Shown piece by piece: positions 58,822 through 60,136 of a stretch of 64,000 nucleotides of DNA (positions within the stretch are counted from its first letter, which is position 1; every line of letters begins with the position of its first letter). The notes below the pieces were generated by a model. It worked only from the letters and a program-made list of their open reading frames with translations. It did not search any database and was not told where the DNA came from. Made by a program: the position numbers and the translations under genes. The stretch lies in the NCBI GenBank assembly GCA_002722995.1, contig PBNF01000023.1, forward strand, positions 14,495 to 78,494, read 5' to 3'. Source of the stretch: Legionellales bacterium (GTDB taxonomy: Bacteria; Pseudomonadota; Gammaproteobacteria; Comchoanobacterales; Comchoanobacteraceae).

Positions 58822-59469
58822 TTGAATGTTTTGTTATATGATTTGATCATTGAATACGGTAGGGTTATTGCATTGGTCAAGTCATGTTCAGTGGTTTTGA
58901 AATCGGTCACACGTGAACGGCATTATCGACCTGTCTTTAAACCTGTCACCTTGTCAGCAATCCCTGGAGACGTCTGGCATGTGCAAGGTTTAAATGGCGC
59001 TGGGAAAACTTCCTTGCTTAAAATCATTGCGGGTATCTCGCATCATACGGGGCAGTGTCATGTGTCAGGCGGGGTGGTGTATAGCGGTCATGAGCCTTGT
59101 GTGTATGGGCATTTCGATGTAATCGAAAATTTAAATTATACCACCTTGAATGCGCAGCACTATTCCACACAGCACTGGATTGAACAGTGTGCCATATGGC
59201 AGCTACCTGAGCGACGTTCTGCACGTCAGTTATCAGCTGGGCAGCGTCAAGCTTTGAATTTATTGCGCATTATCCACTCAGGTGCAGGATGTTGGTTATT
59301 AGATGAATCTACGCAGTGCTTAGATGTCGATAAAGCTCAATTATGGGCTCAGGCCTGCCAACAGCATGTTCAAGCCGGTGGGGTCATCTTTTTAACAACT
59401 CATATGGCTCAAGACCTTTTGTTGTCAATGGTGACGCAGCGTATCACATTGGAGGCCATGCATGTTTGA
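58822..59469 (+). CDS. ccmA: Cytochrome c biogenesis heme exporter, ATP-binding subunit
   Basis: Walker A GLNGAGKTSLL, signature LSAGQRQAL, Walker B CWLLDES. The start must be non-ATG (TTG 58822 or an internal TTG/GTG). Confidence 0.85.
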   Translation: MNVLLYDLIIEYGRVIALVKSCSVVLKSVTRERHYRPVFKPVTLSAIPGDVWHVQGLNGAGKTSLLKIIAGISHHTGQCHVSGGVVYSGHEPCVYGHFDVIENLNYTTLNAQHYSTQHWIEQCAIWQLPERRSARQLSAGQRQALNLLRIIHSGAGCWLLDESTQCLDVDKAQLWAQACQQHVQAGGVIFLTTHMAQDLLLSMVTQRITLEAMHV

Positions 59470-60046
59470 CGCTCAGTTAAGGTTGTGTTCATTGGAATGG
59501 CGTTTGGCTTACCGTCAAGGTTGGCAGTGGTGTTATGGCCCTGGGGTATATGCACTGCTTTCAATTGTAGCGCATTGGGTTGTGCAAGGTGTTGCGCCCA
59601 GTCTGTGGCCTCAAGTGGGTTGGGTGATCGTATGGATTTTAGCTTGCTTAAGTGTCATTCTGAGTGTTCAAACATTTTTTGCGCCGGATGAGGAATATGC
59701 GATGTCATTATTATGGTGTGTTCGTGGAGCCCCTAGAACTTTTAGATTATGGTTGAAATATACAATAGGGTGTTGTTATTTAATCCTTCCTTTGAGCTTC
59801 ATGTCTTATCTATTAAGTGGCCTACTTGCTATGCCTATGTTGAGCTCAATGACATTTTTATCTGCGCTGGCTTTAGCGGTGAGTTTGATTTTAGGTTTGG
59901 GTTTAAGTGTTGCCAATTTATCTTCTGCGCTGGGAGGACAGTCTAATTTATTAATCATGATTACTTTGCCGCTCTATGTGCCTGTTATTTTTTGGGGAGG
60001 AGGTGCAATATGGCATACTCAGCTGGGATTAAGCGCACAATACTAA
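59462..60046 (+). CDS. ccmB: Heme exporter protein B, truncated by an in-frame TAA (see findings)
   Basis: Hydrophobic protein in the ccmB position with an 8-nt overlap with ccmA. 194 aa, versus about 220 usual. Confidence 0.8.
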   Translation: MFDAQLRLCSLEWRLAYRQGWQWCYGPGVYALLSIVAHWVVQGVAPSLWPQVGWVIVWILACLSVILSVQTFFAPDEEYAMSLLWCVRGAPRTFRLWLKYTIGCCYLILPLSFMSYLLSGLLAMPMLSSMTFLSALALAVSLILGLGLSVANLSSALGGQSNLLIMITLPLYVPVIFWGGGAIWHTQLGLSAQY

Positions 60047-60136
60047 TGGTATGTGTTATCAGGATGTCAATTGATTGGTTGGATCTTGTTTCCTTGGTTG
60101 ATGTCGATGACGGTTAAGATAGGAGTAGATCCATGA
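60047..60136 (+). other. In-frame continuation of ccmB after the TAA: 29 sense codons (WYVLSGCQLIGWILFPWLMSMTVKIGVDP) ending in a TGA that overlaps the ccmC ATG
   Basis: My own codon-by-codon reading. Same frame as ccmB. Hydrophobic like the last CcmB helix. ATGA junction at 60133-60136. Confidence 0.75.

What the first reader, a model, noticed from the sequence alone, without database searches (positions are those of the whole stretch)
59462..60136. ccmB carries an in-frame TAA; the ancestral C-terminal helix and ATGA coupling to ccmC are still intact downstream
ccmB stops at TAA 60044-60046 after 194 codons. The same frame then continues for 29 sense codons (WYVLSGCQLIGWILFPWLMSMTVKIGVDP). 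That segment is hydrophobic, like the last TM helix of CcmB. It ends at TGA 60134-60136, which overlaps the ccmC ATG (60133) in the ATGA arrangement typical of this tightly coupled operon.

With the extension the protein would be 224 aa, which is the usual CcmB size (E. coli about 220). So the TAA looks like a single-codon interruption.

Possible explanations are:
- a recent nonsense mutation truncating the exporter;
- a sequencing error;
- tolerated or programmed read-through;
- a split protein.

All other ccm genes (A, C, D, E, F, G, and the start of H) appear intact, so the pathway seems to be under selection. That makes the interruption notable.
Basis: seen in the sequence. Interest (0 to 1): 0.65.

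Follow-up and report, generated by a model that had tools for sequence, protein, structure and literature searches.

The report
One-base stop codon in ccmB
A single G-to-T change found only in this assembly turns a conserved glutamate codon of the heme-export gene ccmB into a stop and cuts off its last membrane helix; it is an ordinary recent knock-out mutation or a base error, not a new mechanism.

Summary
ccmB (59462-60046) ends at TAA 60044-46. The same frame runs 29 more codons to TGA 60134-36, which overlaps the ccmC ATG at 60133.

The cause is one base. Every other contig of this near-clonal marine population (12 loci, 11 distinct contigs, from several Tara, JGI, Logan and NCBI samples, 97-99.97% identical) has G at 60044. 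That gives GAA (Glu195) and an intact 224-aa CcmB. Apart from that codon, the window's product is identical to one of these proteins (P0004).

More distant relatives (56-58% identity, and three further clade members) also have Glu there. All 143 near-full-length (195-260 aa) CcmB representatives carry 24-32 residues after that column, with conserved L199, P211 and K/R219. The window's extension keeps all three.

An AlphaFold model of the 224-aa form (pLDDT 91.9) matches E. coli CcmB (TM 0.86). It places codon 195 in the first turn of the last helix (193-222).

TAA is the commonest ordinary stop in the window, and the TAAT context is its commonest stop tetranucleotide. Reassignment or programmed read-through is therefore not supported.

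Two readings remain. One is a real, very recent nonsense mutation, which probably inactivates CcmAB. The other is a sequencing or assembly error. Only the reads can separate them. Interest is low.

The parts
58822..59469 (+). ccmA (heme exporter ATPase; divergent). It overlaps the ccmB start by 8 bases.
   Evidence: TIGR01189 111.6 bits, which is below the cut-off of 131.6; PF00005 55.6 bits. Walker A (GLNGAGKTS), the signature (LSAGQ), Walker B (LLDE) and the H-loop His can be read in the translation. One private synonymous change at 59328, GTC versus GTT.
59462..60046 (+). Truncated ccmB reading frame: 194 codons plus TAA. It encodes the N-terminal amphipathic helix and TM1-TM5.
   Evidence: PF03379 33.3 bits, profile positions 4-184 of 215. 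Helices from the AF2 model of the full-length form.
60044..60046 (+). Premature stop TAA. It is GAA (Glu195) in all other contigs, so the difference is a G->T transversion at 60044.
   Evidence: all 12 covering loci have G, as does the 97%-identical L012. P0002 and L014 (56-58% identity) have GAA, and P0006-P0008 have Glu.
60047..60136 (+). In-frame remnant of ccmB: 29 codons plus TGA, encoding nearly all of the last transmembrane helix (TM6, residues 193-222).
   Evidence: Base-for-base identical to the relatives' ccmB 3' ends. Family-conserved L199, P211 and K219 are present. AF2 helix 193-222, block pLDDT 94-98.
60121..60125 (+). AGGAG Shine-Dalgarno sequence for ccmC, 7 nt upstream of its ATG and inside the ccmB 3' remnant.
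   Evidence: Read directly from the sequence. Its function is inferred.
60133..60879 (+). ccmC, intact. Its ATG overlaps the ancestral ccmB TGA (ATGA).
   Evidence: TIGR01191 221.7 bits, above the cut-off of 186. 248 aa, as in the relatives.
60866..60985 (+). ccmD (39 aa), intact.
   Evidence: Same 39-aa gene call at the same place in L004-L010. Identified by position only; no family hit.
60985..61410 (+). ccmE, intact.
   Evidence: NF009729 131.8 bits. 141 aa, as in the relatives.
61430..63313 (+). ccmF, intact.
   Evidence: TIGR00353 525 bits. 627-aa gene call in the relatives.
63313..63882 (+). ccmG/dsbE, intact.
   Evidence: TIGR00385 150.7 bits, above the cut-off of 123. 189 aa in the relatives.
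63875..64000 (+). Start of ccmH, which runs off the window end.
   Evidence: By position, from the L004 gene call 14414-14788 (PF03918 CcmH) mapped onto the window.

Best explanation
This is a real, very recent nonsense mutation. A single G->T transversion at 60044 changed codon 195 of an otherwise intact ccmB from GAA (Glu) to TAA, in the one strain or cell this assembly represents.

Shown: translation of the gene as written stops after residue 194. The product has the N-terminal helix and TM1-TM5 but lacks TM6 (residues 193-222 of the 224-aa protein).

Inferred: in E. coli CcmA2B2CD, CcmB has six TM helices, and TM5/TM6 of one CcmB contact CcmC-TM5. A 5-TM CcmB would therefore most likely misfold, or fail to couple ATP hydrolysis to release of heme-loaded CcmE. 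That would abolish or strongly reduce System I cytochrome c maturation.

ccmC keeps its own AGGAG ribosome-binding site. Its translation could continue, but it would lose the ATGA termination-reinitiation coupling, because ribosomes now stop 87 nt upstream.

The downstream 29 codons, and all other ccm genes, are base-for-base identical to the intact population. The event is too young to have been followed by any decay.
For: (1) The change is a single base. All other contigs have G at 60044, and the encoded 224-aa CcmB equals the window's product plus Glu195 plus the extension.

(2) Glu195 is conserved in the clade down to about 35% identity. The TM6 hallmarks L199, P211 and K/R219 are near-invariant in 143 CcmB representatives, and none of those ends before 24 residues past this column.

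(3) The AF2 model (pLDDT 91.9, pTM 0.87) matches E. coli CcmB 8ce1_B at TM 0.86 over 218 columns and 7f02_B at TM 0.82. Codon 195 lies in the last helix, 193-222.

(4) The literature reports that CcmB has six TM helices, that CcmC-TM5 contacts CcmB TM5/TM6 (PMC9616876), and that CcmB is essential for cytochrome c maturation (PMC11868835).

(5) Over about 44 kb compared, the window differs from all covering contigs at 8 sites: 4 synonymous, 2 missense, 1 intergenic and this nonsense change. That is about 1.8e-4 per base. I judge this, from general knowledge and not from a measurement here, to be well above typical consensus error rates. The synonymous share also looks like genuine strain divergence. 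So the assembly represents a distinct lineage that carries real private variants.
Against: No reads are available, so the base itself is unverified. It is the only transversion among the sites where the window differs from every covering contig. G->T is also the classic signature of oxidative-damage (8-oxoG) artefacts; that point is from my own knowledge.

The T allele was not seen in any other contig. The JGI pattern scan returned only chance matches.

The pathway is otherwise intact and looks to be under selection, which makes a knock-out a priori unlikely to persist. The truncated product exists in the protein collection from one contig only.
Confidence: 0.55

Rival explanations
1. The TAA is an artefact: a wrong base at 60044 from sequencing, amplification or assembly. 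Possible sources are low local coverage, an early whole-genome-amplification error in a single-cell assembly, or oxidative G->T damage. On this reading the organism has the normal GAA codon and an intact 224-aa CcmB.
For: The variant is a singleton against 12 other loci from several samples. It is the only transversion among the window's private differences, and G->T is a known damage signature (my own knowledge). Everything around it is perfectly conserved, including the 29 downstream codons and the ATGA junction. The gene sits in an otherwise intact operon.
Against: The same assembly carries seven other private substitutions in about 44 kb, mostly synonymous, which look like real strain differences rather than noise. 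No frameshifts or other broken genes were seen in the parts of the window compared or annotated, so this is not a generally error-ridden sequence.
Confidence: 0.38
2. The gene has become a functional split gene or 5-TM variant. The 194-aa product works with TM6 supplied as a separate 27-aa peptide by re-initiation at GTG 60053, or it works without TM6.
For: An in-frame GTG lies 7 nt after the stop and would give MLSGCQLIGWILFPWLMSMTVKIGVDP. Ribosomes that terminate at TAA could re-initiate nearby; this is inference only.
Against: There is no Shine-Dalgarno sequence before GTG 60053. No relative has this arrangement, so nothing shows selection for it. None of the 143 near-full-length (195-260 aa) CcmB representatives aligned lacks TM6.
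Confidence: 0.04
3. The TAA is decoded as a sense codon through programmed read-through, a suppressor tRNA or stop-codon reassignment, so that the full 224-aa protein is made.
For: Only that the downstream frame is open and homologous.
Against: TAA ends 21 of the 49 large ORFs tallied in the window, and TAAT is the commonest stop tetranucleotide at 10 of 49. Relatives with 99.9% identical DNA use GAA at this site, so the stop is not a conserved recoding site. The one tRNA in the window is an ordinary tRNA-Arg(CCT). The downstream RNA fold is not distinguishable from shuffled sequence, z = -1.28. Reassignment of TAA is not known in bacteria, and UAAU is an efficient termination context in E. 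coli (my own knowledge).
Confidence: 0.02

Closest known systems
CcmB, the membrane subunit of the CcmA2B2CD heme-handling ABC complex of System I cytochrome c maturation (E. coli; PDB 7F02, 8CE1)
   Same: Same operon order, ccmABCDEFGH. Pfam PF03379 match above the gathering score. The full-length form has the same length (224 versus 220 aa). The predicted fold matches at TM 0.82-0.86 over the whole chain, with six TM helices.
   Different: About 22% sequence identity to E. coli CcmB. It scores far below the NCBIfam equivalog cut-off, 38 versus 156 bits. As written in this window, the frame stops before TM6.
Ordinary young pseudogene caused by a nonsense mutation, as often seen in single strains, MAGs and SAGs
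   Same: One substitution creates a stop. Orthologues in near-identical relatives are intact. The lost segment is a conserved structural element.
   Different: There is no secondary decay at all, and no frameshifts or further substitutions in the remnant. The event is therefore either extremely recent or not real. Read support could not be checked.
Programmed stop-codon read-through or recoding sites
   Same: An in-frame stop is followed by an open, homologous continuation.
   Different: The stop is not conserved in any relative. It sits in the window's commonest ordinary stop context. No stimulatory structure was detected.

Membership tests
CcmB (PF03379 / TIGR01190) | Sequence match to the family profile above its curated threshold | tested here: met
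   PF03379 scores 33.3 bits (194-aa form) and 36.7 bits (224-aa form) against a gathering score of 24.9. The stricter NCBIfam equivalog TIGR01190 is not reached, 38.4 versus 156.2 bits, so this is a divergent member.
CcmB (PF03379 / TIGR01190) | Six-TM fold of the CcmB subunit as in solved CcmABCD structures | tested here: met
   This applies to the ancestral 224-aa form. The AF2 model has pLDDT 91.9. Foldseek finds 8ce1_B at TM 0.86 and 7f02_B at TM 0.82, aligned over 218-219 columns.
CcmB (PF03379 / TIGR01190) | Complete protein, including the last TM helix, encoded in one uninterrupted frame | tested here: not met
   The window frame stops at codon 195, and helix 193-222 is lost. All 143 aligned representatives have 24-32 residues beyond this column.
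CcmB (PF03379 / TIGR01190) | Genomic context between ccmA and ccmC in a ccm operon | tested here: met
   ccmA-ccmB-ccmC-D-E-F-G-H, with overlapping start and stop codons.
Nonsense-mutation pseudogene | Close relatives carry an intact orthologue with a sense codon at the site | tested here: met
   All 12 covering loci at 97-99.97% identity have GAA.
Nonsense-mutation pseudogene | The base is real in the organism (read support) | not testable with these tools
   No reads are available. The source contig could not be retrieved. The JGI pattern scan gave only chance hits.
Nonsense-mutation pseudogene | Loss of function of the truncated product | not testable with these tools
   Inferred from the structure and the literature only.
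Programmed read-through / stop-codon reassignment | The stop codon at the site is conserved among relatives, or TAA is absent from ordinary gene ends | tested here: not met
   The stop is private to this assembly. TAA ends 21 of 49 large ORFs, and 10 of them are TAAT.

The most novel reading that the evidence does not exclude
The T allele is real and is the majority allele of a free-living marine gammaproteobacterial lineage. That lineage would have just lost CcmAB function, and so all c-type cytochromes, while every other ccm gene is still pristine. It would be a snapshot of the first step of respiratory-chain streamlining in the open ocean. Less likely, the 5-TM CcmB plus a re-initiated TM6 micro-peptide could still work as a naturally split ABC membrane subunit.
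Probability: 0.06. Interest if true: 0.4.

Novelty: already known. Interest (0 to 1): 0.12.

Why it matters
It matters little beyond annotation. The 194-aa protein deposited for this genome should be flagged as a truncated or disrupted CcmB (Glu195 to stop), not treated as a natural short variant. Metabolic reconstructions of this genome should not assume either working or lost cytochrome c maturation until the base is checked against reads.

If the mutation is real, it is one example of a fresh deleterious mutation caught in an environmental genome. A by-product may be more useful: this marine lineage has an unusually divergent but structurally canonical CcmA/CcmB pair. Strict equivalog models miss it.

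Tried and rejected
(1) I looked up the contig that encodes the exact 194-aa product, to learn the source and read context. Nothing is on record.

(2) I scanned JGI metagenome contigs for CACAATACNAATGGTATGTG, to look for the T allele in other samples. The four hits are unrelated chance matches with different flanks.

(3) The scan of GTDB species-representative genomes with the CcmB alignment found only one relative at 57% identity, a Gammaproteobacteria MAG (L014). The window's own genome was not found, so the organism is known only as an uncultured marine gammaproteobacterium.

(4) I asked whether the window's private differences cluster near ccmB, which could point to a recombination tract or a low-coverage patch. 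Five of them lie in 52.2-60.0 kb. However, coverage by comparators is uneven, and two more turned up at 34-35 kb. The idea is not robust and I dropped it.

(5) I checked for other broken genes in the window. The overlapping ORFs at 28414-29689 are two separate genes in relatives too. The Pfam scans of ORFs up to 38.7 kb show intact domain architectures, and the gene calls of relatives covering 45-64 kb match the window's ORFs. I did not annotate 38.9-45.2 kb.

(6) I tested for an RNA structure that could sequester the ccmC ribosome-binding site once ribosomes stop early. The predicted fold pairs AGGAG with an upstream UCCUU. Its energy is not different from shuffled sequence, z = -1.28, so this is inconclusive.

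(7) The exact-product look-up for chorismate synthase (35423-36523) found nothing. The cause could be a private missense change or a different start call; I did not resolve it.

(8) No CXXCH cytochrome c genes lie in the window, so dependence on the pathway could not be judged locally.

Full report
OBSERVATION. An ORF runs from ATG 59462 to TAA 60044-60046 and is 194 aa. The same frame continues for 29 sense codons (WYVLSGCQLIGWILFPWLMSMTVKIGVDP) to TGA 60134-60136. That TGA overlaps the ATG (60133-60135) of the next gene as ATGA. The ORF matches Pfam CcmB (PF03379) at 33.3 bits over profile positions 4-184 of 215. With the extension appended, the match becomes 36.7 bits over positions 4-214. 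The flanking genes are ccmA (58822-59469), ccmC, ccmD, ccmE, ccmF, ccmG and the start of ccmH.

WHAT IT IS. A search of 5.8 billion proteins with the joined 224-aa sequence returned two hits, both 224 aa, at 99% and 58% identity. Both have Glu at the stop position. The 90% cluster of the first hit holds four sequences. One is the window's 194-aa product, seen on a single 93-kb NCBI contig. The other three are 224-aa forms. One of those, P0004, is identical to the window's product at all 194 residues, then has Glu195, then has exactly the window's 29-residue extension.

P0004 and its close variants were found on contigs from several Tara Oceans assemblies, a JGI metagenome, Logan assemblies and two NCBI assemblies, one of them GCA_002297985.1. 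Aligning these contigs to the window gives 99.86-99.97% identity for most of them, 99.15% for L013 and 97.2% for L012. At position 60044 the window has T, and all 12 covering loci have G, including L012. L004 and L019 are two slices of one contig, so these 12 loci are 11 distinct contigs. The ancestral codon is therefore GAA, and the stop arose by one G->T transversion.

The 57%-identical homologues, L003 and the gammaproteobacterial MAG L014, also read GAA.

IS THE EXTENSION REALLY CcmB? I ran a full HMMER search of 1.84 billion representative proteins with the clade profile. It found 404 relatives at E<=1e-3, and only 4 at E<=1e-30. I aligned 143 of them, those 195-260 aa long. Every one has 24-32 residues beyond the column of codon 195. 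Leu199 is present in 133 of 143, Pro211 in 130 of 143, and Lys/Arg219 in 134 of 143. The window's extension carries all three. The three nearest clade members (P0006-P0008) also have Glu at 195.

An AlphaFold2 model of P0004, built on 86 aligned sequences, has mean pLDDT 91.9 and pTM 0.87. Its helices are at 2-18, 20-44, 46-72, 92-121, 127-157, 161-187 and 193-222. Foldseek against the PDB finds E. coli CcmB first: 8ce1_B at TM 0.86 and 7f02_B at TM 0.82, aligned over 218-219 columns. A sequence search of the PDB aligns residues 7-217 with E. coli CcmB residues 5-214. The stop therefore falls in the first turn of the sixth and last transmembrane helix and removes nearly all of it.

RECODING OR REASSIGNMENT? 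TAA is the commonest stop among the window's 49 large ORFs (21 TAA, 19 TGA, 9 TAG). The tetranucleotide at this site, TAAT, is the commonest of all, at 10. The only tRNA in the window is tRNA-Arg(CCT). Because DNA that is 99.9% identical elsewhere has GAA, the stop is not a conserved recoding signal.

The only in-frame start after the stop is GTG 60053, and it has no Shine-Dalgarno sequence. By contrast, ccmB (GGAGG, read) and ccmC (AGGAG at 60121-60125, 7 nt before the ATG) each have one. A predicted RNA fold of 60044-60165 pairs the ccmC AGGAG with an upstream UCCUU, but its energy is not different from shuffled sequence, z = -1.28. I draw nothing from it.

REAL MUTATION OR ERROR? I compared about 44 kb of the window with population contigs: 1-12980, 22177-30646, 32095-35935 and 45241-64000. 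The population is nearly clonal. The window differs from all covering contigs at 8 sites:
- 22184, intergenic, with only one comparator;
- 34195, 35316, 53964 and 59328, all synonymous;
- 52222, Thr47Met in a permease;
- 55048, Ala114Val;
- 60044, Glu195stop.

That density is about 1.8e-4 per base. In my judgement, which is general knowledge and was not measured here, that is far above normal consensus error. The excess of synonymous changes also points to real divergence. The assembly therefore probably represents a genuinely distinct strain or cell, and such a lineage can carry fresh deleterious singletons.

On the other side, the nonsense change is the only transversion among these eight. 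G->T is the classic oxidative-damage artefact (own knowledge). No other contig carries T. The scan for the T allele in JGI metagenomes gave only chance matches, and the source contig could not be retrieved. No other gene in the compared or annotated parts of the window is broken. I put a real mutation at about 0.55 and an artefact at about 0.38. Only read-level data can decide.

CONSEQUENCE IF REAL. This part is inferred. The E. coli cryo-EM work describes CcmB as a six-TM subunit of a CcmA2B2 ABC module. In it, CcmC-TM5 contacts TM5 and TM6 of one CcmB, and ATP-driven movements of CcmB are passed to CcmC to release heme-loaded CcmE (PMC9616876). CcmB is stated to be essential for cytochrome c maturation (PMC11868835).

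A CcmB without TM6 would have its C-terminus on the wrong side of the membrane relative to the native topology and would lack part of the CcmC interface. Loss of function is the likely outcome. ccmC could still be translated from its own ribosome-binding site, but without the ATGA coupling. No further decay is present in the remnant or in the other ccm genes, which are identical to the intact population. The event, if real, is very young.

COMPARISON WITH WHAT IS KNOWN, AND NOVELTY. The gene is a divergent but structurally canonical CcmB. The finding is an ordinary single-base nonsense interruption, a kind of event that is well known. It is at least as likely to be flagged by an annotation pipeline as to be biologically meaningful. 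I score it as already known, with low interest (0.12).

The most novel reading that the evidence leaves open is a lineage caught at the first step of losing cytochrome c maturation, or a working split CcmB. I put that at about 0.06.

SIDE OBSERVATIONS. CcmA and CcmB of this lineage fall below NCBIfam equivalog cut-offs, while CcmC and CcmG pass their NCBIfam cut-offs and CcmE and CcmF score only just below theirs. Three large ORFs at 9.8-15.7 kb have no Pfam match. A Lys/Ala/Pro-repeat protein lies upstream of ligA.

Noticed in passing
window 58822-60136 (ccmA, ccmB): CcmA and CcmB of this lineage are unusually divergent. CcmB scores 38 bits against the TIGR01190 cut-off of 156, and CcmA 112 against 132. 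Only 4 representative clusters out of 1.84 billion proteins match the clade profile at E<=1e-30. Yet the predicted fold is canonical CcmB (TM 0.86 to 8ce1_B). CcmC and CcmG in the same operon pass their NCBIfam cut-offs, and CcmE and CcmF score only just below theirs.
   Followed up: partly
window 1-12980, 22177-30646, 32095-35935, 45241-64000 versus L001-L032: The population is almost clonal across several Tara, JGI and Logan samples, at 99.86-100% identity apart from L012 and L013. The window differs from all covering contigs at only 8 sites in about 44 kb, and five of them lie between 52222 and 60044.
   Followed up: partly
window 9771-11813 (-), 12515-14395 (-), 14670-15743 (+): Three large ORFs (680, 626 and 357 aa) directly after the nuo operon have no Pfam match at E<=1e-5. 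The 680-aa ORF is also called as a gene without a Pfam hit in relative L026.
   Followed up: no
window 28414-29689: A Lys/Ala/Pro-rich repeat protein (KAPKAPKAPKAPKAVKAPK...) of 194 aa, followed by a 226-aa ORF, lies upstream of ligA. Neither has a Pfam hit. The two overlapping mechanical ORFs looked like a frameshift, but relatives call the same two separate genes.
   Followed up: yes
window 56215-56729: Two small overlapping ORFs (65 and 109 aa in the relatives' gene calls) without any family hit lie between a hydrolase-like gene and the amino-acid permease.
   Followed up: no
window 35423-36526: The exact product of the chorismate synthase ORF is not on record in the gene collection, although neighbouring genes are. 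The cause could be another private amino-acid change or a different start call.
   Followed up: no
window 60085-60135: The predicted RNA pairing covers the ccmC Shine-Dalgarno AGGAG (60121-25) and an upstream UCCUU. It is not better than shuffled sequence, z = -1.28.
   Followed up: yes
L020 4352-4660: The shorter purA call in the MAG GCA_002297985.1 contig is caused by a scaffold gap of Ns, not by a biological disruption.
   Followed up: yes
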